64,000 nucleotides of DNA from Mayamaea pseudoterrestris (Eukaryota). Both the position numbers and the translations under genes were made by a program. The stretch lies in contig BROI01000011.1 of assembly GCA_027923505.1 (NCBI GenBank), positions 868,001-932,000 of the forward strand. The letters are read 5' to 3'. Within the stretch, counting starts at the first letter, position 1. Each line of letters begins with the position of its first letter. Under the pieces are notes generated by a model, which was not told the DNA's origin, did no database searches, and saw only the letters and a list, made by a program, of their open reading frames with translations. Shown piece by piece: positions 1-45,184 of the stretch.

Positions 1-3000
1 CTTGTAGCGCAGCCTGAATAATGATGTTGGCACCATTCTGGTGTAATTTGGGCACCTACAGGGCTTGCTGTAGGGGCGTTTGAATGTCATGGCATCTGCG
101 GGCTGAGACTGGTGACAAGTTGTCACCAAATACATTGCCATCCCCTGAGACACCAGCCAAGCCTACCATCTTGTAGTGCAGCCTGAAAAATGATGTTGGC
201 ACCATTCTGGTGTAATTTGGGCACCTACAGGGCTTGCTGTAGGGGCGTTTGAATGTCATGGCATCTGCGGGCTGAGACTGGTGACAAGTTGTCACCAAAT
301 ACATTGCCATCCCCTGAGACACCAGCCAAGCCTACCATCTTGTAGCGCAGCCGGAAAAATGATGTTGGCACCATTCTGGTGTAATTTGGGCACCTACAGG
401 GCTTGCTGTAGGGGCGTTTGAATGTCATGGCATCTGCGGGCTGAGACTGGTGACAAGTTGTCACCAAATACATTGCCATCCCCTGAGACACCAGCCAAGC
501 CTACCATGTTGTAGCGCAGCCTGAAAAATGATGTTGGCACCATTCTGGTGTAATTTGGGCACCTACAGGGCTTGCTGTAGGGGCGTTTGAATGTCATGGC
601 ATCTGCGGGCTGAGACTGGTGACAAGTTGTCACCAAATACATTGCCATCCCCTGAGACACCAGCCAAGCCTACCATCTTGTAGCGCAGCCTGAATAATGA
701 TGTTGGCACCATTCTGGTGTAATTTGGGCACCTACAGGGCTTGCTGTAGGGGCGTTTGAATGTCATGGCATCTGCGGGCTGAGACTGGTGACAAGTTGTC
801 ACCAAATACATTGCCATCCCCTGAGACACCAGCCAAGCCTACCATCTTGTAGCGCAGCTGGAATAACGATGTTGGCACCATTCTGGTGTAATTTGGGCAC
901 CTACAGGGCTTGCTGTAGGGGCGTTTGAATGTCATGGCATCTGCGGGCTGAGACTGGTGACAAGTTGTCACCAAATACATTGCCATCCCCTGAGACACCA
1001 GCCAAGCCTACCATGTTGTAGTGCAGCCTGAAAAATGATGTTGGCACCATTCTGGTGTAATTTGGGCACCTACAGGGCTTGCTGTAGGGGCGTTTGAATG
1101 TCATGGCATCTCGGGCTGAGACTGGTGACAAGTTGTCACCAAATACATTGCCATCCCCTGAGACACCAGCCAAGCCTACCATCTTGTAGCGCAGCCTGAA
1201 TAATGATGTTGGCACCATTCTGGTGTAATTTGGGCACCTACAGGGCTTGCTGTAGGGGCGTTTGAATGTCATGGCATCTAGGGCGCCAAAGGCTCGGCTG
1301 AGACTGGTGACAAGTTGTCACCAAATACATTGCCATCCCCTGAGACACCAGCCAAGCCTACCATCTTGTAGTGCAGCCGGAATAATGATGTTGGCACCAT
1401 TCTGGTGTAATTTGGGCACCTACAGGGCTTGCTGTAGGGGCGTTTGAATGTCATGGCATCTGCGGGCTGAGACTGGTGACAAGTTGTCACCAAATACATT
1501 GCCATCCCCTGAGACACCAGCCAAGCCTACCATCTTGTAGCGCAGCCTGAATAATGATGTTGGCACCATTCTGGTGTAATTTGGGCACCTACAGGGCTTG
1601 CTGTAGGGGCGTTTGAATGTCATGGCATCTGCGGGCTGAGACTGGTGACAAGTTGTCACCAAATACATTGCCATCCCCTGAGACACCAGCCAAGCCTACC
1701 ATGTTGTAGTGCAGCCTGAATAATGATGTTGGCACCATTCTGGTGTAATTTGGGCACCTACAGGGCTTGCTGTAGGGGCGTTTGAATGTCATGGCATCTG
1801 TGTGCTGAGACTGGTGACAAGTTGTCACCAAATACATTGCCATCCCCTGAGACACCAGTCAAGCTACCATGTTGTAGTGCAGCCTGAAAAATGATGTTGG
1901 CACCATTCTGGTGTAATTTGGGCACCTACAGGGCTTGCTGTAGGGGCGTTTGAATGTCATGGCATCTGCGGGCTGAGACTGGTGACAAGTTGTCACCAAA
2001 TACATTGCCATCCCCTGAGACACCAGCCAAGCCTACCATCTTGTAGTGCAGCCTGAAAAATGATGTTGGCACCATTCTGGTGTAATTTGGGCACCTACAG
2101 GGCTTGCCGTAGGGCGGAGACGAGGTTTGGCACGCGGGCTGAGACTGGTGACAAGTTGTCACCAAATACATTGCCATCCCCTGAGACACCAGCCAAGCCT
2201 ACCATGTTGTAGCGCAGCCTGAAGAATGATGTTGGCACCATTCTGGTGTAATTTGGGCACCTACAGGGCTTGCTGTAGGGGCGTTTGAATGTCATGGCAT
2301 CTGCGGGCTGAGACTGGTGACAAGTTGTCACCAAATACATTGCCATCCCCTGAGACACCAGCCAAGCCTACCATGTTGTAGTGCAGCCTGAATAATGATG
2401 TTGGCACCATTCTGGTGTAATTTGGGCACCTACAGGGCTTGCTGTAGGGGCGTTTGAATGTCATGGCATCTGCGGGCTGAGACTGGTGACAAGTTGTCAC
2501 CAAATACATTGCCATCCCCTGAGACACCAGCCAAGCCTACCATCTTGTAGCGCAGCCTGAATAATGATGTTGGCACCATTCTGGTGTAATTTGGGCACCT
2601 ACAGGGCTTGCTGTAGGGGCGTTTGAATGTCATGGCATCTGCGGGCTGAGACTGGTGACAAGTTGTCACCAAATACATTGCCATCCCCTGAGACACCAGC
2701 CAAGCCTACCATGTTGTAGCGCAGCCTGAATAATGATGTTGGCACCATTCTGGTGTAATTTGGGCACCTACAGGGCTTGCTGTAGGGGCGTTTGAATGTC
2801 ATGGCATCTGCGGGCTGAGACTGGTGACAAGTTGTCACCAAATACATTGCCATCCCCTGAGACACCAGCCAAGCCTACCATCTTGTAGCGCAGCCTGAAT
2901 AATGATGTTGGCACCATTCTGGTGTAATTTGGGCACCTACAGGGCTTGCTGTAGGGGCGTTTGAATGTCATGGCATCTGCGGGCTGAGACTGGTGACAAG

Positions 3001-6000
3001 TTGTCACCAAATACATTGCCATCCCCTGAGACACCAGCCAAGCCAACCATGTTGTAGTGCAGCCTGAAAAATGATGTTGGCACCATTCTGGTGTAATTTG
3101 GGCACCTACAGGGCTTGCTGTAGGGGCGTTTGAATGTCATGGCATCTGCGGGCTGAGACTGGTGACAAGTTGTCACCAAATACATTGCCATCCCCTGAGA
3201 CACCATCCAAGCTAACCATCTTGTAGTGCAGTCTAAATAATGATGTTGGCACCATTCTGGTGTAATTTGGGCACCTACAGGGCTTGCTGTAGGGGCGTTT
3301 AAATGTCATGGCATCTGCGGGCTGAGACTGGTGACAAGTTGTCACCAAATACATTGCCATCCCCTGAGACACCAGCCAAGCCTACCATGTTGTAGTGCAG
3401 CCTGAAAAATGATGTTGGCACCATTCTGGTGTAATTTGGGCACCTACAGGGCTTGCTGTAGGGGCGTTTGAATGTCATGGCATCTGCGGGCTGAGACTGG
3501 TGACAAGTTGTCACCAAATACATTGCCATCCCCTGAGACACCAGCCAAGCCTACCATCTTGTAGCGCAGCCTGAATAATGATGTTGGCACCATTCTGGTG
3601 TAATTTGAGCACCTACAGGGCTTGCTGTAGGGGCGTTTGAATGTCATGGCATCTGCGGGCTGAGACTGGTGACAAGTTGTCACCAAATACATTGCCATCC
3701 CCTGAGACACCAGCCAAGCCTACCATGTTGTAGTGCAGCCTGAAAAATGATGTTGGCACCATTCTGGTGTAATTTGGGCACCTACAGGGCTTGCTGTAGG
3801 GGCGTTTGAATGTCATGGCATCTGCGGGCTGAGACTGGTGACAAGTTGTCACCAAATACATTGCCATCCCCTGATACACCAGCCAAGCCTACTAGGTTGT
3901 AGTACAGCCTGAAAAATGATGTTGGCACCATTCTGGTGTAATTTGGGCACCTACAGGGCTTGCTGTTGGGGCGTTTGAATGTCATGGCATCTGCGGGCTG
4001 AGACTGGTGACAAGTTGTCACCAAATACATTGCCATCCCCTGAGACACCAGCCAAGCCTACCATCTTGTAGTGCAGCCTGACAGCCTGAATAATGATGTT
4101 GGCACCATTCTGGTGTAATTTGGGCACCTACAGGGCTTGCTGTAGGGGCGTTTGAATGTCATGGCATCTGCGGGCTGAGACTGGTGACAAGTTGTCACCA
4201 AATACATTGCCATCCCCTGAGACACCAGCCAAGCCTACCATGTTGTAGCGCAGCCTGAATAATGATGTTGGCACCATTCTGGTGTAATTTGGGCACCTAC
4301 AGGGCTTGCTGTAGGGGCGTTTGAATGTCATGGCATCTGCGGGCTGAGACTGGTGACAAGTTGTCACCAAATACATTGCCATCCCCTGAGACACCAGCCA
4401 AGCCTACCATCTTGTAGCGCAGCCTGAATAATGATGTTGGCACCATTCTGGTGTAATTTGGGCACCTACAGGGCTTGCTGTAGGGGCGTTTGAATGTCAT
4501 GGCATCTGCGGGCTGAGACTGGTGACAAGTTGTCACCAAATACATTGCCATCCCCTGAGACACCAGCCAAGCCAACCATGTTGTAGTGCAGCCTGAAAAA
4601 TGATGTTGGCACCATTCTGGTGTAATTTGGGCACCTACAGGGCTTGCTGTAGGGGCGTTTGAATGTCATGGCATCTGCGGGCTGAGACTGGTGACAAGTT
4701 GTCACCAAATACATTGCCATCCCCTGAGACACCATCCAAGCTAACCATCTTGTAGTGCAGTCTAAATAATGATGTTGGCACCATTCTGGTGTAATTTGGG
4801 CACCTACAGGGCTTGCTGTAGGGGCGTTTAAATGTCATGGCATCTGCGGGCTGAGACTGGTGACAAGTTGTCACCAAATACATTGCCATCCCCTGAGACA
4901 CCAGCCAAGCCTACCATGTTGTAGTGCAGCCTGAAAAATGATGTTGGCACCATTCTGGTGTAATTTGGGCACCTACAGGGCTTGCTGTAGGGGCGTTTGA
5001 ATGTCATGGCATCTGCGGGCTGAGACTGGTGACAAGTTGTCACCAAATACATTGCCATCCCCTGAGACACCAGCCAAGCCTACCATCTTGTAGCGCAGCC
5101 TGAATAATGATGTTGGCACCATTCTGGTGTAATTTGAGCACCTACAGGGCTTGCTGTAGGGGCGTTTGAATGTCATGGCATCTGCGGGCTGAGACTGGTG
5201 ACAAGTTGTCACCAAATACATTGCCATCCCCTGAGACACCAGCCAAGCCTACCATGTTGTAGTGCAGCCTGAAAAATGATGTTGGCACCATTCTGGTGTA
5301 ATTTGGGCACCTACAGGGCTTGCTGTAGGGGCGTTTGAATGTCATGGCATCTGCGGGCTGAGACTGGTGACAAGTTGTCACCAAATACATTGCCATCCCC
5401 TGATACACCAGCCAAGCCTACTAGGTTGTAGTACAGCCTGAAAAATGATGTTGGCACCATTCTGGTGTAATTTGGGCACCTACAGGGCTTGCTGTTGGGG
5501 CGTTTGAATGTCATGGCATCTGCGGGCTGAGACTGGTGACAAGTTGTCACCAAATACATTGCCATCCCCTGAGACACCAGCCAAGCCTACCATCTTGTAG
5601 TGCAGCCTGAAAAATGATGTTGGCACCATTCTGGTGTAATTTGGGCACCTACAGGGCTTGCTGTAGGGGCGTTTAAATGTCATGGCATCTGCGGGCTGAG
5701 ACTGGTGACAAGTTGTCACCAAATACATTGCCACCCCCTGAGACACCAGCCAAGCCTACCATCTTGTAGCGCAGCTGGAATAATGATGTTGGCACCATTC
5801 TGGTGTAATTTGGGCACCTACAGGGCTTGCTGTAGGGGCGTTTGAATGTCATGGCATCTGCGGGCTGAGACTGGTGACAAGTTGTCACCAAATACATTGC
5901 CATCCCCTGAGACACCAGCCAAGCCTACCATCTTGTAGCGCAGCTGGAATAATGATGTTGGCACCATTCTGGTGTAATTTGGGCACCTACAGGGCTTGCT

Positions 6001-8980
6001 GTAGGGGCGTTTGAATGTCATGGCATCTGCGGGCTGAGACTGGTGACAAGTTGTCACCAAATACATTGCCATCCCCTGAGACACCAGCCAAGCCTACCAT
6101 CTTGTAGCGCAGCCTGAATAACGATGTTGGCACCATTCTGGTGTAATTTGGGCACCTACAGGGCTTGCTGTAGGGGCGTTTGAATGTCATGGCATCTGCG
6201 GGCTGAGACTGGTGACAAGTTGTCACCAAATACATTGCCATCCCCTGAGACACCAGCCAAGCCTACCATCTTGTAGCGCAGCCTGAATAATGATGTTGGC
6301 ACCATTCTGGTGTAATTTGGGCACCTACAGGGCTTGCTGTAGGGGCGTTTGAATGTCATGGCATCTGGGGGCTGAGACTGGTGACAAGTTGTCACCAAAT
6401 ACATTGGAATAATGATGTTGGCACCATTCTGGTGTAATTTGGGCACCTACAGGGCTTGCTGTAGGGGCGTTTGAATGTCATGGCATCTGCGGGCTGAGAC
6501 TGGTGACAAGTTGTCACCAAATACATTGCCATCCCCTGAGACACCAGCCAAGCCTACCATCTTGTAGCGCAGCTGGAATAATGATGTTGGCACCATTCTG
6601 GTGTAATTTGGGCACCTACAGGGCTTGCTGTAGGGGCGTTTGAATGTCATGGCATCTGCGGGCTGAGACTGGTGACAAGTTGTCACCAAATACATTGCCA
6701 TCCCCTGAGACACCAGCCAAGCCTACCATCTTGTAGCGCAGCCTGAATAACGATGTTGGCACCATTCTGGTGTAATTTGGGCACCTACAGGGCTTGCTGT
6801 AGGGGCGTTTGAATGTCATGGCATCTGCGGGCTGAGACTGGTGACAAGTTGTCACCAAATACATTGCCATCCCCTGAGACACCAGCCAAGCCTACCATCT
6901 TGTAGCGCAGCCTGAATAATGATGTTGGCACCATTCTGGTGTAATTTGGGCACCTACAGGGCTTGCTGTAGGGGCGTTTGAATGTCATGGCATCTGGGGG
7001 CTGAGACTGGTGACAAGTTGTCACCAAATACATTGCCATCCCCTGAGACACCAGCCAAGCCTACCATCTTGTAGCGCAGCCTGAATAATGATGTTGGCAC
7101 CATTCTGGTGTAATTTGGGCACCTACAGGGCTTGCTGTAGGGGCGTTTGAATGTCATGGCATCTGCGGGCTGAGACTGGTGACAAGTTGTCACCAAATAC
7201 ATTGCCATCCCCTGACAGACCAGCCAAGCCTACCATCTTGTAGCGCAGCCGGAATAACGATGTTGGCACCATTCTGGTGTAATTTGGGCACCTACAGGGC
7301 TTGCTGTAGGGGCGTTTGAATGTCATGGCATCTGCGGGCTGAGACTGGTGACAAGTTGTCACCAAATACATTGCCATCCCCTGAGACACCAGCCAAGCCT
7401 ACCATCTTGTAGTGCAGCCTGAATAATGATGTTGGCACCATTCTGGTGTAATTTGGGCACCTACAGAGCCTGCTGTAGGGGCGTTTGAGAGTCATGGCAT
7501 CTGCGGGCTGAGACTGGTGACAAGTTGTCACCAAATACATTGCCATTCCCTGAGACACCAGCCAAGCCTACCATCTTGTAATGCAGCCCGAAAAATGATG
7601 TTGGCACCATTCTGGTGTAATTTGGGCACCTACAGGGCTTGCTGTAGGGGCGTTTGAATGTCATGGCATCTGCGGGCTGAGACTGGTGACAAGTTGTCAC
7701 CAAATACATTGCCATCCCCTGAGACACCAGCCAAGCCTACCATGATGTAGTGCAGCCTGAATAATGATGTTGCCACCATTCTGGTGTAATTTGGGCACCT
7801 ACAGGGCTTGCTGTAGGGGCGTTTGAATGTCATGGCATCTGCGGGCTGAGACTGGTGACAAGTTGTCACCAAATACATTGCCATCCCCTGAGACACCAGC
7901 CAAGCCTACCATGATGTAGTGCAGCCTGAATAATGATGTTGCCACCATTCTGGTGTAATTTGGGCACCTACAGGGCTTGCTGTAGGGGCGTTTGAATGTC
8001 ATGGCATCTGCGGGCTGAGACTGGTGACAAGTTGTCACCAAATACATTGCCATCCCCTGAGACACCAGCCAAGCCTACCATCTTGTAGTGCAGCCTGAAT
8101 AATGATGTTGGCACCATTCTGGTGTAATTTGGGCACCTACAGGGCTTGCTGTAGGGGCGTTTGAATGTCATGGCATCTGCGGGCTGAGACTGGTGACAAG
8201 TTGTCACCAAATACATTGCCATCCCCTGAGACACCAGCCAAGCCTACCATCTTGTAGCGCAGCCTGAATAATGATGTTGGCACCATTCTGGTGTAATTTG
8301 GGCACCTACAGGGCTTGCTGTAGGGGCGTTTGAATGTCATGGCATCTGCGGGCTGAGACTGGTGACAAGTTGTCACCAAATACATTGCCACCCCCTGAGA
8401 CACCAGCCAAGCCTACCATCTTGTAGCGCAGCCTGAATTATGATGTTGGCACCATTCTGGTGTAATTTGGGCACCTACAAGGCTTGCTGTAGGGGCGTTT
8501 GAATGTCACGGCATCTGTGGGCTGAGACTGGTGACAAGTTGTCACCAAATACATTGCCATCCCCTGAGACACCAGCCAAGCCTACCATCTTGTAGTGCAG
8601 CCTGAATAATGATGTTGGCATGATTCTGGTGTATTTTGGGCACCTACAGGGCCTGATGAAAGGGCGTTTGAATGTCATGGCATCTGCGGGCTGAGACTGG
8701 TGACAAGTTGTCACCAAATACATTGCCATCCCCTGAGACACCAGCCAAGCCTACCATCTTGTAGCGCAGCCTGAATAATGATGTTGGCACCATTCTGGTG
8801 TAATTTGGGCACCTACAGGGCTTGCTGTTGGGGCGTTTGATTGTCACGGCAAGTGTGGGCTGAGACTGGTGACAAGTTGTCACCAAAGACATTGCCATCC
8901 CCTGAGACACCAGCCAAGCCTGCCATTTTGTAGCGCAGCCGGAATAATGATGTTGGCACCATTCTGATGTGATTTGGGTG
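1..8980. repeat. 169-bp tandem satellite array, ~53 copies visible, open at the left window edge
   Basis: Near-identical unit (…GATGTTGGCACCATTCTGGTGTAATTTGGGCACCTACAGGGCTTGCTGTAGGGGCGTTTGAATGTCATGGCATCTGCGGGCTGAGACTGGTGACAAGTTGTCACCAAATAC…) recurs every 169 bp; ORF track offsets are also 169. The last ~3 copies are more diverged. Confidence 0.99.
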
Positions 8981-9283
8981 TATACATGGCATGTTATCGT
9001 AGAAGGATATATGCATATATCCGGACATGCTTCACGACATTAATGGGTGTAACTTGGTGCGACATGCCGTACTTCTTGGCGTTCATGCAGTCTACTCCAA
9101 TGACCCATAAATGACTGGTGGTTCAGCGACATCATCTACCCGGGCCAGTTAATTTAGCATCCTGCGTCTGCTGGTTGGTAATGTTTATGCGCGCGTAGCG
9201 CGCAAAAGTAGTCGTTGCAGACATTGTAAAAGCATTGATCCTTCCACCTCCCGCCCCGCGAATGTGTTCTGGGCCATTTTTTG

Positions 9284-9310
9284 ATGTCACGGCATCTGCG
9301 GGCTGAGACT
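9284..9310 (+). repeat. Isolated fragment of the 169-bp unit
   Basis: ATGTCACGGCATCTGCGGGCTGAGACT matches the monomer with one C/T difference, ~300 bp beyond the array end. Confidence 0.85.
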
Positions 9311-32281: not shown

Positions 32282-33199
32282 ATGACATCAAGACTACCTT
32301 TTCTATTGCTATGCTTGACAAGTGTTGTATCAGCGTTTGCCATTAACGGACAACCAGCCTTTCAAGCCAGGACGTCCTCACTCGCTAGCTCAACCATCAG
32401 CTCTTCGCTTACGACAGAGCTCAAGCCTCCAGCTGCCTTGTATGATGGAGCAGTCGCAGCTGGAGCAGCCAAAGCCTCTGGATCATTTGCAAAGACCTTT
32501 AAGCTTGGCGTTGTCGCAGGTTGTCATATTGCCTTTGGCATGTTCCTTTCATGTTCCGTCGGAGGAGCTTGTCCAGGCCTCGCCGCGTCGAATCCAGGCT
32601 TGCAAAAGATTGTCGCAGGAGCATTTGGACTGCCGTTTGGACTCATTATGACTCTTGTGACGGGAGGAGAATTGTTCACTGGCAATACGGCCTTGGTGAC
32701 GGCTGCTCGCGTCGAAGGCAAGATTAAAACCAAGGACTTGGCTCGCAACTGGTCGGCATCCTACCTTGGGAACTTTGTTGGCAGCTTGCTGCTCGCCTAT
32801 TTGGCCTTCAAAAGTGGAACATTGGGAGCCGCTCCAGGGGCCGTGAATATCGCGACTGCGAAATGCTCCTTGGCGTGGGATGTTGCCTTTGTACGTGGCA
32901 TTCTCTGCAACTGGCTCGTTTGCATGGCCGTGTACATGGCCAGTGGCTGCTCGAGCATGATTGGCAAGATGACAGCCGTCTGGTTTCCTATTAGTGCTTT
33001 TGTGGCTCTTGGCTTGGACCATTCTATTGCCAACATGTTTATCATTCCGCTCGGCATTATGCGAGGAGCGGAGATTACGGTTCTCCAAATGTTCACCAAG
33101 AATCTTATTCCGGTCACGCTCGGCAACATTGTCGGCGGTGCACTATGTGCCATGATGCCTTACGGGTCAACGTTTGGCAAATGGACCGAGAAGAAGTGA
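32282..33199 (+). CDS. Formate/nitrite transporter (NAR1/LCIA-like), plastid-targeted
   Basis: GGELFTGN, GNFVG, GILCNWLVC, DHSIANM and VTLGNIVGG motifs. The N-terminus …VVSAFA is a signal peptide plus ASAFAP-like motif. Confidence 0.93.
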   Translation: MTSRLPFLLLCLTSVVSAFAINGQPAFQARTSSLASSTISSSLTTELKPPAALYDGAVAAGAAKASGSFAKTFKLGVVAGCHIAFGMFLSCSVGGACPGLAASNPGLQKIVAGAFGLPFGLIMTLVTGGELFTGNTALVTAARVEGKIKTKDLARNWSASYLGNFVGSLLLAYLAFKSGTLGAAPGAVNIATAKCSLAWDVAFVRGILCNWLVCMAVYMASGCSSMIGKMTAVWFPISAFVALGLDHSIANMFIIPLGIMRGAEITVLQMFTKNLIPVTLGNIVGGALCAMMPYGSTFGKWTEKK

Positions 33200-36346: not shown

Positions 36347-36448
36347 TTCTACAAAGCAGTGGTTCAATCAGTACTCTTGTATGGCAGCGAATTGTGGAAC
36401 ATGAGTTCCCCTATGCTGAAGATGTTACAAGGCTTCCACCACCAGGTA
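36347..36448 (+). pseudogene. Fragment of non-LTR retrotransposon (RTE-like) reverse transcriptase, C-terminal/thumb region
   Basis: Manual translation gives FYKAVVQSVLLYGSELWNMSSPMLKMLQGFHHQV, matching the Y.A.V..vLLYG.E.W…L..FH pattern of RTE-clade LINEs. Flanked by AT-rich junctions and too short for the ORF track. Confidence 0.75.
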
Positions 36449-36705
36449 ATAGTAACTAATACTTTATATTACTAGTGTCAGAGCCTAGGAGGGGAGGAAC
36501 CACTGTCGGGGATTGGTATCACAGTGACAACCCCTGCTCTCTGGAGGCCAGTTTCAAATGAATGTAGCGATAGCTAAAAAGGGTGCACTGCTGGCACATT
36601 CAACCTTGTGTTTGGTGCAACAAAATCATCCATAGCTGCTTCCAAGCAGCTATGTTATGGGAAGGCAGTTCAGACATCCACACAGGAACCAGCTCCATAG
36701 TGCTT

Positions 36706-36874
36706 ATGCCGTGACATTTAAACGCCCCTACAGCAAGCTCTGTAGGTGCCTAAAATACACCAGGAAGGTGCCAACATCATTATTCATGCTGCGCCACAAC
36801 ATGGTAGGCTTGACTGGTGTCTCAGGGGATGGCAATGTATTTGGTGACAACTTGTCACCAGTCTCAGTCCGCAG
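36706..36874 (-). mobile_element. Single inverted full-length 169-bp satellite monomer inserted in the second island
   Basis: Ungapped reverse complement of the 169-mer (about 11 substitutions by eye). An empty copy of the target is at ~37050-37075. Confidence 0.9.
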
Positions 36875-37399
36875 CAGTGCATGGCCTTCCAAACCTACCC
36901 ACAGTTGTAGTCTTGCCCCATTAATTCCATTCGGCTATGCTTGGGGACATGCTTGTGGTGAGACTGGTGCATATAAATCATCCAGAGCTGATTCTTAGCA
37001 GCTATGGTATGGGAGGGCAATCCAGACATCCACACAGGTACCAGCTCCATGGTGCTACAGTGCATGGCCTTCCAAACCTACCCACCATGGCATATGTGGA
37101 GGTGGATACGCAGTGCAACTGACCATCTTATGGCCCATCATGACAACACACATGATGCAAAAGATATTGCAGGGCTCAGCAGGCAATGCAGATGATCCCT
37201 GCTGCCAAAAAGGGAGCAGTGCTGGCACATTCAACCATTTCTTATATGTGCGGAGTCTCAGGGCATAGTGATGGCTTCCCACTTAAGACGGCGAAAAGTC
37301 CACCCAGGTGCACCGCAACAAAATTGTAGACCTTGTCTCACCTCATATGTAACAACTTATGGACAGACTTCAATAGTAATGGCTTTTACACGACAGGAT

Positions 37400-40300
37400 A
37401 AATGTTCAAGTCCATGTTAGTTGTATTATGGGGTCTGGAGGCCATTTCGGAAGTCTCACTTGCCACTTGAGGTGCACCACTGGCAGATCCAACAAGTTGT
37501 TAGATCTGCTCAGTCTCACCATGGCATATGTGGTGGTGGATACTGCAGTGCAACTGACCAACTTATGGCCCATCATGATAACAAACATATATTAAAGATA
37601 TTGGAGGGCTCAGCAGGCTATGCTGATGATCCCTGCAGCCAAAAAGGGAGCAGGGCTGGCACATTCAACCAGTTGTTGAATGTGCAAAGTTTCAGGGCAA
37701 AGTAATGGCGTTTACACCCAAATTGACAAGTCTATGTGTTGCAATGACTGTTAAGGTCCATGTTTGTTGTATTATGGGGTCTGGAGGTCATTTTGGAAGT
37801 CTCACTTGCCACTTGAGGTGCATTGCTAGCAGATCCAACAAGTTGTAGGATCTGCTCAGTGTCTCACCATGGCATATGTGGAGGTGGATACTGCAGTGCA
37901 AATGACCAACTTATGGCCCATCATGACAACACACATGATGCAAAAGATATTGGAGGGCTCAGCAGGCAATGCTGATGATCCCTGCAGCCAAAAAGGGAGC
38001 AGGGCTGGCACATTCAACCAGTTGTTGAATGTGCGGAGTTTCAGGGCATAGTGATGGCTTTCACACCCAAACAGACACGTCTATGATTCCCAATTACTGT
38101 TAAGGTCCATGTTTGTTGTATTATGGGGTCTGGAGGCCATTTTGAAAGTCTCACTTGCCACTTGAGGTGCACCACTGGCAGATCCAACAAGTTGTAGGAT
38201 CTGCTCAGTGTCTCACCATGGCATATGTGGCGGTGGATACTGCAGTGCAAATGACCAACTTATGGCCCATCATGACAACAAACATGATGCAAAAGATATT
38301 GGAGGGCTCAGCAGGCAACGCTGACGATCCCTGCAGCCCATCATGATATGATACATATATTAAAGATATTGGAGGGCTCAGCAGGCTATGCTGATGATCC
38401 CTGCAGCCAAAAAGGGAGCAGGGCTGGCACATTCAACCAGTTGTTGAATGTGCAAAGTTTCAGGGCAAAGTAATGGCGTTTACACCCAAATTGACAAGTC
38501 TATGTGTTGCAATGACTGTTAAGGTCCATGTTTGTTGTATTATGGGGTCTGGAGGTCATTTTGGAAGTCTCACTTGCCACTTGAGGTGCATTGCTAGCAG
38601 ATCCAACAAGTTGTAGGATCTGCTCAGTGTCTCACCATGGCATATGTGGAGGTGGATACTGCAGTGCAAATGACCAACTTATGGCCCATCATGACAACAC
38701 ACATGATGCAAAAGATATTGGAGGGCTCAGCAGGCAATGCTGATGATCCCTGCAGCCAAAAAGGGAGCAGGGCTGGCACATTCAACCAGTTGTTGAATGT
38801 GCGGAGTTTCAGGGCATAGTGATGGCTTTCACACCCAAACAGACACGTCTATGATTCCCAATTACTGTTAAGGTCCATGTTTGTTGTATTATGGGGTCTG
38901 GAGGCCATTTTGAAAGTCTCACTTGCCACTTGAGGTGCACCACTGGCAGATCCAACAAGTTGTAGGATCTGCTCAGTGTCTCACCATGGCATATGTGGCG
39001 GTGGATACTGCAGTGCAAATGACCAACTTATGGCCCATCATGACAACAAACATGATGCAAAAGATATTGGAGGGCTCAGCAGGCAATGCTGATGATCCCT
39101 GCAGCCAAAAAGGGAGCAGGGCTGGCACATTCAACCAGTTGTTGAATGTGCGGAGTTTCAGGGCATAGTGATGGCTTCCACACCCAAACAGACAAGTCTA
39201 TGAGTCCCAATTACTGTTAAGGTCCATGTTTGATGTATTATGGGGTCTGGAGGCCATTTTGGAAGTCTCACTTGCCACTTGAGGTGCACCACTGGCAGAT
39301 CCAACAAGTTGTAGGATCTGCTCAGTGTCTCACCACGGCATATGTGGAGGTGGATACTGCAGTGCAAATGACCAACTTATGGCCCATCATGACAACACAC
39401 ATGATGCAAAAGATATTGGAGGGCTCAGCAGGCAATGCTGATGATCCCTGCAGCAAAAAAGGGAGCAGGGCTGGCACATTCAACCAGTTGTTGAATGTGC
39501 GGAGTTTCAGGGCATAGTGATGGCTTCCACACCCAAACAGACACGTCTATGATTCCCATTCAATGTTTAAGTCAATGTTGGTTGATTATGGGGTCTGGAG
39601 GCCATTTTGGAAGTCTCACTTGCCACTTGAGGTGCATTGCTAGCAGATCCAACAAGTTGTTGGATCTGCTCAGTCTCACCATGGCATATGTGGCGGTGGA
39701 TACTGCAGTGCAAATGACCAACTTATGGCCCATCATGACAACAAACATGATGCAAAAGATATTGGAGGGCTCAGCAGGCAATGCTGATGATCCCTGCAGC
39801 CAAAAAGGGAGCAGGGCTGGCACATTCAACCAGTTGTTGAATGTGCAGAGTTTCAGGGCATAGTGATGGCTTCCACAGCCAAACAGACAAGTCTATGAGT
39901 CCCAATTTTTGTTAAGGTCTATGTTGGTTGTATTATGGGGTCTAAAGGCTATTTTGGAAGTCTCACTTGCCACTTGAGGTGCACCACTGGCAGATCCAAC
40001 AAGTTGTTGGATCTGCTCAGTCTCACCATGGCATATGTGGTGGTGGATACTGCAGTGCAAATGACCAACTTATGGCCCATCATGATAACAAACATGATGC
40101 AAAAAATATTGGAGGGCTCAGCAAGCTATGCTGATGATCCCTGCAGCCAAAAAGGGAGCAGGGCTGGCACATTCAACCAGTTGTTGAATGTGCGGAGTGT
40201 CAGGGCAAAGTAATGGCTTTTACACCCAAATGGACAAGTCTATGAGTTCAAATAAATGATCAAGTCCATGTTGGTTGATTATGGGGTCTGGAAGCCATTT

Positions 40301-41290
40301 TGGAAGTCTCACTTGCCACTTGAGGTGCACCACTGGCAGATCCAACAAGTTGTAGGATCTGCTCAGTGTCTCACCATGGCATATGTGGAGGTGGATACTG
40401 CAGTGCAAATGACCAACTTATGGCCCATCATGACAACACACATGATGCAAAAGATATTGGAGGGCTCAGCAGGCAATGCTGATGATCCCTGCAGCAAAAA
40501 AGGGAGCAGGGCTGGCACATTCAACCAGTTGTTGAATGTGCGGAGTTTCAGGGCATAGTGATGGCTTCCACACCCAAACAGACACGTCTATGAGTCCCAA
40601 TTACTGTTAAGGTCCATGTTTGTTGTATTATGGGGTCTGGAGGCCATTTTGGAAGTCTCACTTGCCACTTGAGGTGCACCACTGGCAGATCCAACAAGTT
40701 GTTGGATCTGCTCAGTGTCTCACCATGGCATATGTGGCGGTGGATACTGCAGTGCAAATGACCAACTTATGGCCCATCATGACAACAAACATGATGCAAA
40801 AGATATTGGAGGGCTCAGCAGGCAATGCTGATGATCCCTGCAGCCAAAAAGGGAGCAGGGCTGGCACATTCAACCAGTTGTTGAATGTGCGGAGTTTCAG
40901 GGCATAGTGATGGCTTCCACACCCAAACAGACACGTCTATGAGTCCCAATTACTGTTAAGGTCCATGTTGCTTGTATTATGGGGTCTGGAGGCCATTTTG
41001 GAAGTCTCACTTGCCACTTGAGGTGCACCACTGGCAGATCCAACAAGTTGTAGGATCTGCTCAGTGTCTCACCATGGCATATGTTGTGGTGGATACTGCA
41101 GTGCAAATGACCAACTTATGGCCCATCATGACAACACACATGATGCAAAAGATATTGGAGGGCTCAGCAGGCAATGCTGATGATCCCTGCAGCCAAAAAG
41201 GGAGCAGGGCTGGCACATTCAACCAGTTGTTGAATGTGTGGAGTCTCATGGCATGATGATGGGTCCCACACCCTCATTGACAAGACTATG
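37400..41290. repeat. 349-bp tandem satellite array, ~11 copies, with degenerate copies from ~36580 to ~41800
   Basis: Unit (…TATTATGGGGTCTGGAGGCCATTTTGGAAGTCTCACTTGCCACTTGAGGTGCACCACTGGCAGATCCAACAAGTTG…) recurs at ~345-350 bp and contains two 27-bp dyads. Confidence 0.98.
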
Positions 41291-42456
41291 AATTTAAATC
41301 AACTTTAACCTGATTGGTGTTTGTATTCTATGGTCTGGGGACCATTTGGGCAGTTGGATTGGCCACTGATGTGCACTGCCAGCAGATCCAAGAAGTTGTT
41401 GGATGCGCCAAGTCTCACTGACCATGGTGCACATGATGATGTAAACTGACTGTGAGGTGCAACCAATGACATCATTGGCCCCAACATGTCGACAAACATG
41501 AATGGCTTGGATTTGGAGGCTCAGCAGGCAATGCTGATAATCCCAGTAGCCATGAGCGGTGCACTGCTGGCACATTCAACCTTTTGTTGAATGTGCGGAG
41601 CCTCATGGCATGATAATGGGTCCCATACCCTCATTGACAAGACTATGAGTCTTATTCAACCATAAACTGAATACTCCTTCCAACTCTATCATTGGCTGAA
41701 TCATGTCAACGAACTCGAATTGAAAGGAATTGATGGGCTCAGCAGGCAACACTGATGATCTCTGTAGCCAAGAAGGGTGCACTGCTGGCACTTTCAGCCA
41801 AGGTCCCTTTGGAATATGTCCCATCCCATATTGGATCTTAATCTATGATTAGTGCTTCAATTGGCAATTATCTTGAACTGGAGGCATGAGGCAAGCAGGA
41901 GGCAAGTGTGCGTCAAATTGATGGAGGCGGCGGTCATAGTGCCTTTAGAGCAATGTTAGCTTACTAATACACATAACGTGCATGGGACCCTTATGGCTTG
42001 TGTTGGGCTGTCCTGCACTTGCCATCTAACTGGTAGCAGGAGGAAAGCAAAGCTGATGCACAAAATATTTACGTTTGAGAGGTAAGATATGCATAACATC
42101 CGGTACATGTTCATGCTGAATGCTTTTAAACCAGCTGGCAAACATTGGGATGCCAACTCATTTTGCAATTATTATATTGCACATGATCAACAAGGACAAT
42201 ACGCACCTATTCAATTTATTTGGAGTTAGCTTGGGCTTCTTATCAATCAACTGATGTTTTGGTTCAACGTTATATTGCTGGCATTGACTTGGGCAAGATG
42301 TAGTACCACTGTTTACAACTGTGACAAGGCAATGACTATGAGCCAATTCGCGTGATATGCCTACAAGATGGATGCAACTAAAGGGTAAAATGGGCACAAT
42401 GCTGTAGCTAGTACCATACTTATCAACCCGCTCGCCAAAAGCATGTAACTAAACTA

Positions 42457-43590
42457 TCACAGCAGGAGGAGCGTAAAGGCAAATGCAGCAAATGCAGTAA
42501 ACCTCATTGCTTCGATACTTAGACTAGACGAAACATCCTCACCGACTGATCTTCTATCAGCGCTAGGAGCCGCCGACGGTGCTCCGGTAGCTTCGACTTC
42601 GCTTATTATTCGACTGGAAAAGGGGCACCACTGCGAATCGGGCAAGAATGACGCAGTACCAACTTGCGCCAGGTTAGCCTCAACCTCGTCAATACCGGCG
42701 TCACATGTTTCTGGAAAGTATGCCGAGAAGTAGACAGACGAAGGAGCCAAGTAGAAGGACCAGTTGGGATTCCAATCAATCGATTCCTTGACAATGGTGC
42801 CTCCCACCACGAGAAAATTGTCCACGGCCGTGAGCTCTTCACGCGCCGTCTGAATGTTTGCTAGGTCCGTAATGCGAACGATAAAGTGTTGACTCGTATC
42901 CGAAATGTCATCGCGGTTTGCCGAGGCGACAAAGTCGACAAACGTCAAGGGCGCCACCGTGGGGCCGAACGGAGTGGGCATTGGTGAAACTAGCGTCGGC
43001 GCCTGCGACGGAACATCTGACGGTGCATCCGAGAGTGATTCTGAGAGCTCCTCCAACACTCGCGTGCTCCAAGGACACCAAAAATTGTTTGGCAAAAAGT
43101 CAGTCCCAACTGTGGCAAGGTTATCTTGCACGTACTCGACGTTGGCGTCGCATACTTCAATGAACATTTCACCAAAAGTTACAGTGTCTGGATCCAGATA
43201 AAATGACCATTGGGGATAGTTCCATGGTGCTGACTCTTTGACGATTGTACCCGCAATAATTTGAAAGCCTTCCGTTTTGGCAAGCTCTCCTCGAGCAATC
43301 GCAATGGCATCAGGATTAGTGATTCGAGCGATAAAATGTTGGTCCGTATTTGAAATGTTTTGCGAATCAGTCGTTACCAAAAAGTCGACGAAAGCTTCAT
43401 TACTTCCAGTTGCATTAGATGGAGTTGCGTTGACTGGTAGAAAGGCCACTGATGGAGCCATTGATGTGATGGATATCGCCGGAGTAGGAGTCGCGCTTGT
43501 CTGTGTGACGGTAGGTGCTGGAGGGGACGATGATTGCGCAGCTGCGCAACCAGCGAGCAAAAGTGGTAGAAGCCTCCTTACAGTCATCAT
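42457..43590 (-). CDS. Surface protein with two tandem BP74-N / CaM-BP15-like domains
   Basis: Signal peptide; two copies of FIxRIT…I..AR.EL…GTIVKE…WN..WSFYL.P…E.CDA…FLP…WCP.S.R; hydrophobic C-terminus. The family name is recalled, not searched. Confidence 0.8.
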   Translation of the reverse strand: MMTVRRLLPLLLAGCAAAQSSSPPAPTVTQTSATPTPAISITSMAPSVAFLPVNATPSNATGSNEAFVDFLVTTDSQNISNTDQHFIARITNPDAIAIARGELAKTEGFQIIAGTIVKESAPWNYPQWSFYLDPDTVTFGEMFIEVCDANVEYVQDNLATVGTDFLPNNFWCPWSTRVLEELSESLSDAPSDVPSQAPTLVSPMPTPFGPTVAPLTFVDFVASANRDDISDTSQHFIVRITDLANIQTAREELTAVDNFLVVGGTIVKESIDWNPNWSFYLAPSSVYFSAYFPETCDAGIDEVEANLAQVGTASFLPDSQWCPFSSRIISEVEATGAPSAAPSADRRSVGEDVSSSLSIEAMRFTAFAAFAFTLLLL

Positions 43591-43945
43591 GGAGAATGAA
43601 CAATTCACAAAAGCTCTCTACCAAGTAGGCGCCTGGCCAGGCTGTGCTTCCGATATCAATTCAATTTGTGGTTTTGATTTTGTCGGTCACTCGCGAAAAC
43701 GGACCTTGACTGTTTAAACCGGTGCGACGGTCAAAAGCAGTCATCAATCGTGCACGAAACTTTGGGACCATGCTTGCCGATACCGAAGTAGCGGGAGTTG
43801 TGTGCAAGAAATGTAATTAGCTAGTGCAACAAACAGCCATTTCAGCTACTATGTACTCTTATAAAAAGGAGACTGTAAAGTTAATGCCTCCAGATCTTCA
43901 GTGTTTCATTTGTTGTACATTCAATTGGTGCAAAATGCTTTAGTG

Positions 43946-45184
43946 TCATAGAAGAGCAAGCACAAGAAGTAGCAAGTTTGAATGCACCATTGCCAGGCCC
44001 GTCCACATAACTTTGATGTGATCTGCCGACGAAGAGGATGACTCGTCTTCGTCCGACCCGCCGGAGCCATCACTGGTTGGTCCAGTCGCCGGAGAATCAT
44101 TTGGCGACGAGGCGCCACCACCATTGCTGTCGCTAGTACCGCCGCCAGAAGAGTCTGTAGGAGTGTTTCCGCCCCCAGACGAAGAGTCGGTGGGAATGTC
44201 GCCACCGGAAGACGTTTCAAGTTCGCGCAGTATCCTACTGGTGGATGGACACCACTGCAGGTTTGGCAAATATGTTTCGCCGGCGTTTGTTAGATCCAAT
44301 TGAATGAACTTGACCGAAACGTCGCATGTTTCCGAGTATATTGCAGTGAGGCTGACAGTGCTTGGTCGAATGTAAAAGGTCCAATTTGGGTTCCATGAAG
44401 CCGCTTCCTTGTTGATGGTGCCCGTTACAACCAAAAAGTCAGAATCCTTGTCGACCTCATTGCGAGCAGCTTCAATCGTGGATGGATCAGTGATGCGGAC
44501 AATGTAATGTTGACTCGTATCCGAAGGGTTACTTCGATCTGATGTGGCAACAAAGTCAGCCATGGTCGCTGGTGTGACAGTAGGTGATGGAGTCGCTGGC
44601 TCAGTGCCACCGCCGTCGATTCCAGTTCCACCACCCGCAGCAGATGGAGCGATAGTGACTACTGGCGCCTCTGTTGGAGGTATTGTTGGAATAATCAAAG
44701 TGGGAGATGCAGTCGGCGACGGTGTTGGTTTGGGTGAACTCGTTAAAGGGAAAGCTTCGAACGAACAAGTAGCTCCGTCAATGTTAAGCGTGTCAGTGTA
44801 GCCGATCTATAAATCGAGATAGGTTCGTGTCAGTATTGAATCATAAACGAGTGTTTCCTCTCAGTTGCTGTTGCTTACCTCTGTTTGAAAGGAGACTACC
44901 AATGCCGTGGCAAGTATTGTATACGATCCTGCTGCAGCATACGCATGACTATACGGTACAATTTCACCGTCTTGCACTGTTCGATTCTCCGTCGATATGG
45001 CCGTCGCATCACCCCAATCAATGGTAAATGCATAGTCCGAGTCGCCAAAGTTCTTAATGTATGTCAAGGTAACATTTAGCCCCACGCATGTCGGTGGTGA
45101 CTCTGCATTCCAGGCGCCCATGATTTCCTGCGCTGATGCGCAAGTAGCGAGTATAGCGGCTAATAGAAGTCTATAGAGAATCAT
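43946..45184 (-). CDS. Paralogous surface protein with a PKD-like domain and one BP74-like domain (intron 44807-44878)
   Basis: Signal peptide; FTIDWGD…HAYAAAGSYTI (PKD-like); the same WNPNWTFY…ETCD…WCP domain as its neighbour; Ser/Gly stalk and hydrophobic tail. Confidence 0.8.

What the first reader, a model, noticed from the sequence alone, without database searches (positions are those of the whole stretch)
40681..40905. The 349-bp unit is a dimer of ~179+170 bp halves whose 27-bp dyads differ by mirror-compensated changes
Seen: dyad A GCAGATCCAACAA-G-TTGTTGGATCTGC (40685-40711) and dyad B GCACATTCAACCA-G-TTGTTGAATGTGC (40864-40890). Both follow CTG and precede an AGT(C/T)TCA-like motif. 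The left-arm differences (G>C, C>T) are mirrored in the right arm (C>G, G>A), while the rest of the two halves has diverged strongly. Inference: symmetry itself is being maintained, either by selection for a hairpin, cruciform or dimeric-protein site, or by template-switch correction between arms.
Basis: partly seen in the sequence, partly recalled or inferred. Interest (0 to 1): 0.75.

Follow-up and report, generated by a model that had tools for sequence, protein, structure and literature searches.

The report
Conserved palindrome box in diatom satellite
A very abundant tandem repeat of a diatom carries, twice per 349-base unit, a 27-base palindrome that changes more slowly than the rest of the repeat and whose two arms have changed together; this is a known kind of satellite-DNA feature, seen here in a new group of organisms.

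Summary
A 349-bp tandem repeat (37403-41291) is an old dimer of 179 + 170 bp halves. Each half carries a 27-bp dyad, and these are far beyond chance (25 sites against 0 in 100 shuffles). Dyad A is a perfect 13+1+13 palindrome; dyad B pairs at 12 of 13 positions.

The left arms differ at three positions, not two. Two differences are mirrored in this window. The third (A>C at position 12) is mirrored by T>G at 40879 in about 40% of the depth of the best-holding public run.

The dyads are the slowest-evolving part of the repeat:
- 22/27 identity between halves against 80/156 elsewhere.
- 2/54 against 58/295 variable columns among array copies.
- 11/108 against 134/410 differences in decayed edge copies.

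An unrelated 169-bp satellite in the same window (1-8999) has its own invariant palindrome with the same central 9-mer, ACAAGTTGT.

Against strict maintenance, most single changes are uncompensated and only 3 of 11 array A dyads are perfect. The covariation rests on two or three events in one genome.

The host is a diatom. Best reading: a conserved, DNA-level palindromic box in a higher-order satellite. Whether hairpin formation, a dimeric protein or arm-to-arm copying keeps it symmetric remains open. It is a new member of a known kind.

The parts
37403..41291 (.). 349-bp satellite array, about 11 units, each made of an A half (179 bp) and a B half (170 bp)
   Evidence: TRF rows with period 349, 92-94% matches. 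nhmmer finds alternating A and B halves. Contigs of run X1 join the unit's end back to its start, which shows tandem order (table 5).
40685..40711 (.). Dyad A, a perfect 13+1+13 palindrome. As a hairpin it extends to 40680-40717 (CACTG...CAGTG) with a one-base bulge.
   Evidence: DNA fold -17.5 kcal/mol, z -7.3.
40864..40890 (.). Dyad B, 12 of 13 pairs (C/T mismatch at pair 12). Identical in all 10 array copies that were aligned.
   Evidence: DNA fold -12.1 kcal/mol, z -4.7. T>G at 40879, which would make pair 12 a C:G pair, holds about 40% of depth in run X1.
40636..40707 (.). Family-wide conserved block 1: about 50 nt upstream plus most of dyad A
   Evidence: Summed contig depth in X1 is 0.6-1.03 million here, against 33,000-59,000 at 40720-40743 (table 2).
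40804..40899 (.). Family-wide conserved block 2: about 60 nt upstream plus dyad B
   Evidence: Summed contig depth in X1 is 0.5-1.17 million, with the unit's maximum over the left arm of dyad B (table 2).
41209..41830 (.). Decayed right edge of the array: older B, A, B(partial), A(partial) and B-like copies with partly eroded dyads
   Evidence: nhmmer hits at 41209-41376, 41381-41562, 41566-41658 and 41696-41781. In the four diverged copies compared (three here plus the one at 37221 on the left edge), dyads differ from the array consensus at 11/108 positions against 134/410 elsewhere.
36545..37402 (.). Mosaic left edge. It holds a B-type module joined to a third repeat type with its own palindrome (36631-36654), one reverse-oriented 169-bp unit (36702-36861), and partial A and B halves.
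1..8999 (.). 169-bp satellite array of 53 units that runs off the window's start. Each unit has the palindrome TGGTGACAA-G-TTGTCACCA (for example 3329-3347) and a second dyad GCACCTACAG-GGCTTG-CTGTAGGGGC (for example 3440-3465).
   Evidence: TRF. The first palindrome is exact in 53 of 53 units. It sits inside the longest invariant run, 29 columns, permutation p 5e-5.

Best explanation
The two dyads are diverged copies of one old palindromic box. The box belongs to a very abundant diatom satellite whose 349-bp unit is a higher-order dimer of two ancient monomers of about 175 bp.

Shown:
- The box, with about 45 nt upstream of it, is the slowest-evolving part of the repeat.
- The differences between the A and B boxes sit at mirrored positions and stay complementary.
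- The central base is free to vary.
- A second, otherwise unrelated satellite in the same window has an invariant palindrome built on the same central 9-mer.

Inferred: the box works at the DNA level as a symmetric element. It is a hairpin- or cruciform-prone site, possibly read by a symmetric protein. Its symmetry is restored after a change in one arm by arm-to-arm copying (template switching, or repair on the folded strand). Repeat variants that keep the box are then the ones that persist and spread through the arrays. What the box does for the cell or for the repeat (satellite chromatin or centromere, or promotion of array amplification) is not shown.
For: Reality of the dyads:
- 25 sites against 0 in 100 shuffles.
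- Fold z-scores of -7.3 and -4.7.

Dimer origin:
- The halves align outside the dyads at z 4.5, p 0.001.
- The upstream 45 nt are 23/45 identical, p 0.0005.
- Older B copies carry GGTGCACTGCTGGCAC where A has GGTGCACCACTGGCAG.

Slower evolution of the dyads:
- 22/27 identity between A and B against 80/156 aligned columns elsewhere, Fisher p 0.003, and against 23/45 upstream, p 0.012.
- Among array copies, 2/54 dyad columns vary against 58/295 elsewhere, p 0.0027.
- In four decayed edge copies, 11/108 against 134/410 differences, p 1e-6.
- In run X1, 3107 contigs were laid. Summed depth is about 1 million over both dyads and their upstream blocks, falling to 33,000-59,000 between them.

Symmetry:
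- Pairs 4 (G:C to C:G) and 7 (C:G to T:A) changed on both sides.
- P = 0.0028 that 5 random arm changes leave 12 or more of 13 pairs.
- The formal pair count gives 2 pairs with changes on both sides, and the covariation score of 0.151 is reached by 7 of 500 shuffles.
- In X1, T>G at 40879 (364,628 of 918,815 depth) turns the one mismatched pair of B into C:G.
- In X1, G>A at 40684 (316,168 of 780,987) adds a 14th A:T pair to dyad A, a form also present in the window at 39642-39670.
- X1's tallies by kind of change are fully accounted for by the displayed rows for G>C, T>C, T>A, T>G, A>C and C>A. Half-converted states such as G>C at 40688 or 40887, or T>C at 40870, are therefore below 5%.

Centre free to vary:
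- G>T at the centre of B holds 39% of X1 depth.

Second family:
- The 169-bp satellite's palindrome is exact in 53 of 53 units and centred in a 29-column invariant run, p 5e-5.
- A diverged solo copy keeps 38/38 arm bases, against 12/115 differences elsewhere and 1/7 in spacers, p 0.038.
- Its central 9-mer ACAAGTTGT equals that of dyad A. My estimate of the chance of this for two 1-nt-spaced palindromes is about 4 x 4^-5 = 0.004.
Against: Independent events are few.
- All covariation comes from the A/B split (two pairs) plus one polymorphism in one run.
- A single arm-copying event could have made several of these at once.

Most single changes are not compensated.
- 7 of 11 array A dyads carry T>A at 9' and 1 carries G>A at 8'.
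- B keeps its C/T mismatch in all window copies and in about 60% of X1 depth.
- G>A at 40701 (18% of X1 depth) breaks pair 11.
- None of the 11 changes in the edge-copy dyads is mirrored.
- 6 of 13 pairs depart only by unpaired cells.

Conservation is not confined to the dyad.
- The upstream blocks are as deep in X1 as the dyads.
- The 169-bp family's other dyad varies like its surroundings, with 7 of 26 columns variable.
- So palindromes as such are not all kept.

Limits of the read data.
- Table 3 shows 40 of 83 variant rows, and 13 X1 places at 5% or more are hidden and could lie in the dyads.
- Whether 40877T and 40879G sit on the same copies cannot be told.
- Contigs drop rare variants.
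- Runs X4-X6 mirror X1's depth profile (r 0.93-0.98) at 1e-4 to 8e-4 of its depth. They may be carry-over within one study and are not independent species.

Other gaps.
- No similarity between the 169-bp unit and the A/B modules beyond the core (14 comparisons, smallest p 0.054).
- No structure probing, binding or location data exist.
Confidence: 0.42

Rival explanations
1. The box is the binding site of a sequence-specific homodimeric protein, with half-sites around ACAA/TTGT and a free central base. Symmetry is kept because each half-site must fit the same protein surface.
For: - The central 9-mer is shared by dyad A and the unrelated 169-bp satellite's invariant palindrome.
- The central base varies freely: G>T holds 39% in X1, and the spacer changed in the solo copy while 38/38 arm bases did not.
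- The sequence, not only the pairing, is conserved.
- Palindromes lacking this core are not specially conserved. These are the second dyad of the 169-bp unit and the third-type palindrome, whose second copy at 36982 is eroded.
Against: - The outer arms differ completely between the families, and at two or three pairs between A and B, yet are symmetric in each. A protein reading only the core would not demand this.
- The B core differs from A's: ACCAGTTGT, and with the X1 variants ACCATTGGT.
- 13-bp arms are long for a eukaryotic factor (general knowledge, recalled).
- No protein is identified, and binding is not testable here.
Confidence: 0.25
2. The box has no function. Symmetry is a by-product of mutation, either by template switching within quasi-palindromes or by the same context-dependent mutation hitting both arms. 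The apparent conservation comes from concerted evolution of the arrays.
For: - Template switching is known to extend and restore arm identity and to create compensatory changes in hairpins. Sources: PMC8794818 and PMC5453318 (abstracts in the listing) and PMC3820800 (abstract in the same listing).
- The high-frequency X1 variants at 40684 and 40879 both lengthen or repair the palindrome, and 40877/40879 form a two-change cluster.
- Dyad A can be extended outwards to CACTG...CAGTG.
- Perfect symmetry is clearly not required in each copy.
Against: - A purely mutational process keeps arms alike but does not slow their sequence change, and the dyads change about three times more slowly than the flanks.
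- It should also act on decayed edge copies, where 0 of 11 dyad changes are mirrored.
- The centre change G>T at 40877 is not what copying the left arm would give (read from the sequence).
Confidence: 0.2
3. The dyads are relics of a mobile element: junctions of terminal inverted repeats of tandemly arrayed miniature transposons, or the 3' hairpin of a rolling-circle (Helitron or Helentron) element.
For: - Satellite-like arrays carried by such elements are known in other organisms (PMC7492417 and PMC3879986, titles and abstracts in the listing).
- The module of upstream block plus dyad occurs joined to another repeat type at 36575-36620.
- One 169-bp unit sits alone inside another repeat.
Against: - The arms pair better within a dyad (13/13, 12/13) than across a half, as terminal repeats would have to. 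Right arm of A against left arm of B gives 10/13, and right arm of B against left arm of A gives 11/13, counted from the sequences.
- No CTRR end follows either hairpin within about 20 nt.
- No Rep or transposase domain appears among the 22 ORFs scanned; there is only an SF1 helicase of the AAA_11/AAA_12 type.
Confidence: 0.06
4. Chance plus common descent: the two palindromes are simply inherited from one palindromic ancestor, and the mirrored differences are coincidence.
For: Only two mirrored pairs occur in the window. The A and B rows are not independent samples.
Against: - P = 0.0028 for keeping 12 of 13 pairs after 5 random changes, and 4e-5 for 13 of 13 after 6.
- The flanks between halves are near saturation (about 51% identity in an optimised alignment), whereas the dyads are 81% identical.
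Confidence: 0.05

Closest known systems
[quoted passage not shown]
   Same: Tandem satellite of roughly nucleosomal unit length. Dyad symmetry is enriched over shuffled sequence and predicted to fold. Those authors argue such symmetries may have been selected.
   Different: Those dyads are under 10 bp and were judged by enrichment, whereas here the arms are 13 bp with a 1-nt centre and show arm-to-arm compensation. The word 'compensat' does not occur in that paper. Centromere location is unknown here. The arrays lie among ordinary genes.
Higher-order repeats with a conserved protein box, such as alpha satellite dimers with the CENP-B box (recalled; the box motif is quoted in PMC5889037)
   Same: A unit built of two old, diverged monomers, with a short box that stays conserved while the rest drifts.
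   Different: The CENP-B box is not a palindrome and, as I recall, sits in alternate monomers. Here both halves keep a symmetric box, and no binding protein is known.
Quasi-palindrome correction and hairpin maintenance by template switching (PMC8794818, PMC5453318, PMC3820800; abstracts in the listing)
   Same: One-step changes that make two arms complementary again, and clusters of nearby changes.
   Different: Those cases are RNA genes, human mutation clusters and yeast reporters. Here it would act inside a multicopy satellite, and it does not explain the slow sequence change of the arms.
Oomycete satellites PpSat1 (337 bp) and PpSat2 (143 bp) of Phytophthora parasitica (PMC7290008; outline and passages read)
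   Same: Stramenopile satellites found in a compact genome, with predicted secondary structures.
   Different: They differ in unit length and GC content (36.8% and 58.8%). That paper's main text has no mention of palindrome, dyad, hairpin or inverted repeat (0 occurrences each). They are not the same family.

Membership tests
Satellite DNA with higher-order (dimeric) repeat | Head-to-tail tandem arrangement of near-identical units | tested here: met
   TRF period 349, 92-94% matches. X1 contigs join the unit's end to its start (table 5).
Satellite DNA with higher-order (dimeric) repeat | Unit made of two homologous but diverged sub-repeats | tested here: met
   Global alignment of the halves gives z 7.0. 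Outside the dyads it gives z 4.5, p 0.001, and the upstream 45 nt give p 0.0005.
Satellite DNA with higher-order (dimeric) repeat | High copy number in the genome | tested here: inconclusive
   Summed contig depth in X1 is about 1 million, against 118-261 for the eight longest laid contigs. This suggests thousands of copies, but the run's single-copy depth is unknown and no genome is held.
Centromeric dyad-symmetry satellites | Dyad symmetry enriched over composition-matched or shuffled sequence | tested here: met
   Five dyads with 9 or more pairs occur in about 610 bp of repeat units, against 15 in 49.4 kb of the rest of the window. Fold z-scores range from -2.3 to -7.3.
Centromeric dyad-symmetry satellites | Location at the centromere, or association with centromeric histone | not testable with these tools
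   No chromosome-scale context or ChIP data. The arrays are flanked by housekeeping genes.
Protein-binding box of a satellite (CENP-B-box-like) | Specific binding of a protein to the box | not testable with these tools
   No binding data are available.
Helitron/Helentron-borne tandem repeats | Hairpin about 10 nt upstream of a CTRR 3' end, with a Rep/helicase element in the family | tested here: not met
   No CTRR follows either dyad. No Rep domain appears among the 22 ORFs scanned. The rest of the genome could not be searched.
Tandemly arrayed miniature inverted-repeat elements | The two ends of each unit are inverted repeats of each other | tested here: not met
   Across-unit arm matches are 10/13 and 11/13, against 13/13 and 12/13 within the dyads (sequences).
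Ribozyme-bearing or small-RNA-gene tandem repeats | Match to a known RNA family | tested here: not met
   Rfam gave 0 matches at gathering score over the window. At E <= 1 over 36400-42000 there was one chance-level miRNA match, E 0.4. No tRNA was found.
Template-switch-corrected quasi-palindrome | Clustered changes that equal the reverse complement of the other arm | tested here: inconclusive
   T>G at 40879 equals the complement of the left arm. The neighbouring G>T at 40877 does not, and their linkage is unknown.

The most novel reading that the evidence does not exclude
The CAAGTTG-centred palindrome is a functional hairpin or cruciform element shared by at least two otherwise unrelated satellite families of this diatom. 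Its core (loop and closing pairs) is conserved and its stems covary. It would be read by one structure- and sequence-specific factor, for example the mark of satellite-based centromeres in a diatom lineage, or the priming or nicking site that drives amplification of these repeats.
Probability: 0.15. Interest if true: 0.75.

Novelty: new member of a known kind. Interest (0 to 1): 0.45.

Why it matters
Satellite repeats with short dyad symmetries have been proposed to matter for centromeres and chromatin. Direct signs that the symmetry itself is kept, meaning arm-to-arm compensation, are rare. My searches found no paper on diatom satellites with such features, and none containing these motifs. 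If the box is functional, this abundant repeat gives a simple test system. Two natural variants of one palindrome occur in every unit, and a third lies in a second satellite. These could be used to ask whether cells read DNA shape, a sequence, or neither.

Tried and rejected
- **Whole genome:** none is held for this window.
- **Metagenome scan:** I used a pattern that fixed only the upstream block and left arm. It returned 22 loci, all unrelated (a conserved bacterial gene and random hits, none with a right arm), so no relatives were gained.
- **Other collections:** the degenerate dyad pattern gave 0 matches in genome contigs and 0 in viral contigs.
- **Sequencing runs:** no RNA holder was listed.
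- **Runs X4-X6 (other organism labels, same study as X1):** they hold the repeat at 1e-4 to 8e-4 of X1's depth, with the same profile (r 0.93-0.98). I do not count them as related species.
- **Homology of the 169-bp unit to the A/B modules:** an alignment by eye looked tempting (GGCAC, then the dyad, then GCG...TCATGGCAT). Local alignments were not significant in 14 comparisons (smallest p 0.054), and nhmmer found no cross hits. Rejected as unproven.
- **RNA families and tRNA:** nothing was found. The CTGATGA in the conserved block is not part of a recognisable hammerhead.
- **Oomycete satellites (PMC7290008):** a different family.
- **Protein atlas search with the V-ATPase subunit:** it gave the family but no help on the taxon. 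The formate/nitrite transporter search did help.
- **Literature search for the three motif strings:** 0 papers.

Full report
**What is there**

TRF finds a 349-bp tandem repeat from 37403 to 41291 (period 349, 92-94% matches, with a local 419-bp variant). It also finds a separate 169-bp repeat of 53 units from base 1 to 8978 that runs off the window's start. The finding's two dyads are exactly as quoted, at 40685-40711 and 40864-40890. The next A dyad starts at 41034, which gives halves of 179 and 170 bp.

**Host**

The rest of the window is densely packed with long open frames for ordinary eukaryotic proteins. These include V-ATPase subunit A, CAND1/TIP120, Nup84/107, Aph-1, a formate/nitrite transporter, glutathione peroxidase, PTH2 and Borealin.

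The formate/nitrite transporter's named relatives among the 120 hits listed are all diatoms: Attheya, Helicotheca, Fistulifera, Ditylum, Eucampia, Nitzschia and Bacillariaceae. The closest hit overall is an unnamed sequence at 86% identity. So this is satellite DNA in gene-rich nuclear DNA of a diatom. No whole genome is held for the window.

**Is it more than chance?**

Yes.
- A degenerate pattern covering both dyads finds 25 sites in the window (12 A-type, 13 B-type) and none in 100 shuffles.
- Perfect palindromes with arms of 8 or more and a spacer of at most 1 number 62 in the window. Of these, 57 belong to the two satellites and 5 lie elsewhere, and those 5 have arms no longer than 9.
- As single-stranded DNA, dyad A folds at -17.5 kcal/mol (z -7.3). 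Its stem runs on to CACTG...CAGTG with a one-base bulge. Dyad B folds at -12.1 kcal/mol (z -4.7).

**Corrections to the observation**

- Dyad B is not perfect. Pair 12 is C opposite T.
- The left arms differ at three places (4, 7 and 12), and only the first two are mirrored in the window.
- The perfect A form is the minority in this array. Three of 11 copies are perfect, 7 have T>A at 9' and 1 has G>A at 8'.

**Is the unit a dimer?**

Yes.
- The two halves align globally at z 7.0.
- With the dyads removed they still align at z 4.5 (p 0.001).
- The 45 nt upstream of the two dyads are 23/45 identical without gaps (p 0.0005).
- Older, decayed B copies at both edges of the array carry GGTGCACTGCTGGCAC where the A halves have GGTGCACCACTGGCAG. 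This bridges the two types.

**Are the dyads better kept than their surroundings?**

Four comparisons agree.
1. Between halves, identity is 22/27 in the dyad against 80/156 aligned columns elsewhere (p 0.003) and 23/45 upstream (p 0.012).
2. Among array copies in the window (11 A halves and 10 B halves), 2 of 54 dyad columns vary against 58 of 295 others (p 0.0027). This comes mostly from B (0/27 against 37/143); A alone is 2/27 against 21/152.
3. Four decayed edge copies differ from the array consensus at 11/108 dyad positions against 134/410 others (p 1e-6).
4. In the best-holding public run, X1 (contigs, not reads), 3107 contigs lie on one unit. Summed depth is 0.9-1.17 million over each dyad and the 45-60 nt upstream of it, but 33,000-59,000 at 40720-40743 and at the unit's edges.

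The eight longest laid contigs have depths of 118-261. The conserved blocks are therefore probably present in thousands of copies, although the run's single-copy depth is unknown.

Conservation is not confined to the dyad, however. It covers a module of roughly -45 to +30 nt around it.

**Is symmetry itself kept?**

Evidence for:
- Pairs 4 and 7 differ between A and B on both sides and stay complementary. Five random arm changes would leave 12 of 13 pairs with P = 0.0028.
- In X1, T>G at 40879 holds 364,628 of 918,815 depth. This is the partner of the unmatched C at pair 12, so in about 40% of B boxes genome-wide the third A/B difference is compensated too.
- G>A at 40684 (316,168 of 780,987) adds a 14th A:T pair to dyad A. 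This form is present in the window at 39642-39670.
- The centre of B varies freely (G>T, 39%).
- X1's tallies by kind of change are fully covered by the displayed rows for G>C, T>C, T>A, T>G, A>C and C>A. The half-converted states G>C at 40688 or 40887 and T>C at 40870, and the window's local T>A at 40703, are therefore below 5% genome-wide.

Evidence against:
- Table 3 shows only 40 of 83 rows. Thirteen X1 places are hidden and may lie in the dyads.
- G>A at 40701 (18%) breaks a pair.
- B keeps its mismatch in about 60% of depth and in all window copies.
- None of the 11 dyad changes in edge copies is mirrored.
- The formal count over the 8 distinct window variants gives 2 pairs changed on both sides but 6 pairs that depart only by unpaired cells. 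The covariation score of 0.151 is reached by 7 of 500 shuffles, and those shuffles ignore relatedness.
- The covariation thus rests on two or three events, possibly fewer if one arm-copying event made several.

**A second family**

- The 169-bp satellite has the palindrome TGGTGACAA-G-TTGTCACCA, exact in 53 of 53 units.
- Among 46 full-length units, this palindrome sits in the middle of the longest invariant run: 29 columns, with 62 of 169 columns variable overall, permutation p 5e-5.
- A diverged, reverse-oriented solo unit at 36702-36861 keeps 38 of 38 arm bases of both of the unit's dyads. It has 12/115 differences elsewhere and 1/7 in the spacers (p 0.038).
- Its central nine bases, ACAAGTTGT, are those of dyad A, while its outer arms are unrelated yet again complementary.
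- The units themselves show no significant similarity to the A/B modules (smallest p 0.054 in 14 comparisons; no nhmmer cross hits). So this is either a last relic of common descent or convergence on one core. Either way it points to the box as the constrained part.
- Not every palindrome is kept. The 169-bp unit's other dyad varies like its surroundings (7 of 26 columns). The second copy of the third repeat type's palindrome (36982-37007) is eroded.

**How it most likely works**

Shown:
- An old dimeric satellite.
- A box that changes about three times more slowly than the rest.
- Mirrored differences between the two boxes.
- A free centre.
- A shared core in a second family.

Inferred:
- The box acts at the DNA level as a symmetric element, either a hairpin- or cruciform-prone site or the site of a symmetric protein.
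- Symmetry is restored after one-arm changes by arm-to-arm copying (PMC8794818, PMC5453318 and PMC3820800, abstracts seen).
- Variants that keep the box persist in the arrays.

I lean to structure over a purely sequence-reading dimer because the outer arms differ between families, and between A and B, yet are symmetric in each. I lean against mutation alone because arm-copying does not slow sequence change and did not rescue the edge copies.

A mobile-element origin is unlikely:
- The arms match better within dyads than across units.
- No CTRR end follows the hairpins.
- No Rep or transposase domain was found among the 22 ORFs scanned.

Known RNA families are excluded.

**Comparison with what is known**

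The closest concept is the dyad symmetry of centromeric satellites (PMC5889037). Those symmetries are shorter and were judged by enrichment only. Centromere location cannot be tested here.

Higher-order dimers with a conserved box recall alpha satellite and the CENP-B box (recalled). The oomycete satellites PpSat1 and PpSat2 are a different family.

Searches for diatom satellites with such features and for the motif strings found nothing in the held library. Subscription journals are largely missing from it.

**Verdict**

It is a new member of a known kind and of moderate interest. The evidence comes from one window and one run's contigs. Scans of other collections gave no relatives.

Noticed in passing
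window 36702-36861 (within 36610-37080): Exactly one 169-bp satellite unit, in reverse orientation, sits inside a copy of a third repeat type. The uninterrupted second copy reads ...GGTGCTACAGTGCATGG. The insert is cut at GCAG|ATGCC of the unit, with a CAG microhomology at the junction. This looks like insertion of a single monomer.
   Followed up: partly
window 9279-9308: An isolated 30-bp fragment of the 169-bp unit lies 280 bp beyond the array's end. Its homology stops one or two bases before the position where the unit's palindrome would start.
   Followed up: no
window 36352-36450 (+): A short open frame reads KAVVQSVLLYGSELWNMSSPMLKMLQGFHHQ. From memory it resembles the C-terminal part of retroelement reverse transcriptases. 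If so, it is a transposon fragment next to the array's mosaic edge.
   Followed up: no
window 21980 and 48682: The core ACAAGTTGT occurs twice outside the satellites (about 0.4 expected). Both times it occurs as GACAAGTTGTCG, the form of the 169-bp unit's palindrome. This is probably chance.
   Followed up: partly
window 38336-38405 and 37655-39190: A 70-bp internal duplication makes one 419-bp unit. A block of about 768 bp (one 349-bp unit plus the 419-bp unit) is itself repeated, so the array has a further level of order.
   Followed up: no
window 40775-40796: The 349-bp unit has a third, weaker dyad, CATCATG-ACAACAAA-CATGATG (fold z -2.2).
   Followed up: partly
runs X4, X5, X6: Three runs labelled as other organisms, from the same study as X1, hold this satellite at 1e-4 to 8e-4 of X1's depth. 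Their depth profiles are nearly the same, which looks like carry-over between libraries rather than shared ancestry.
   Followed up: partly
window 42457-43617 and 43946-44806 (-): Two neighbouring genes encode secreted, proline/serine/threonine-rich proteins with BP74_N domains (two and one domain). They lie directly downstream of the array.
   Followed up: no
window 32282-33196 (+): The formate/nitrite transporter starts with a signal peptide ending ...SVVSAFAING. From memory this resembles the ASAF-type plastid-targeting motif of diatoms.
   Followed up: no
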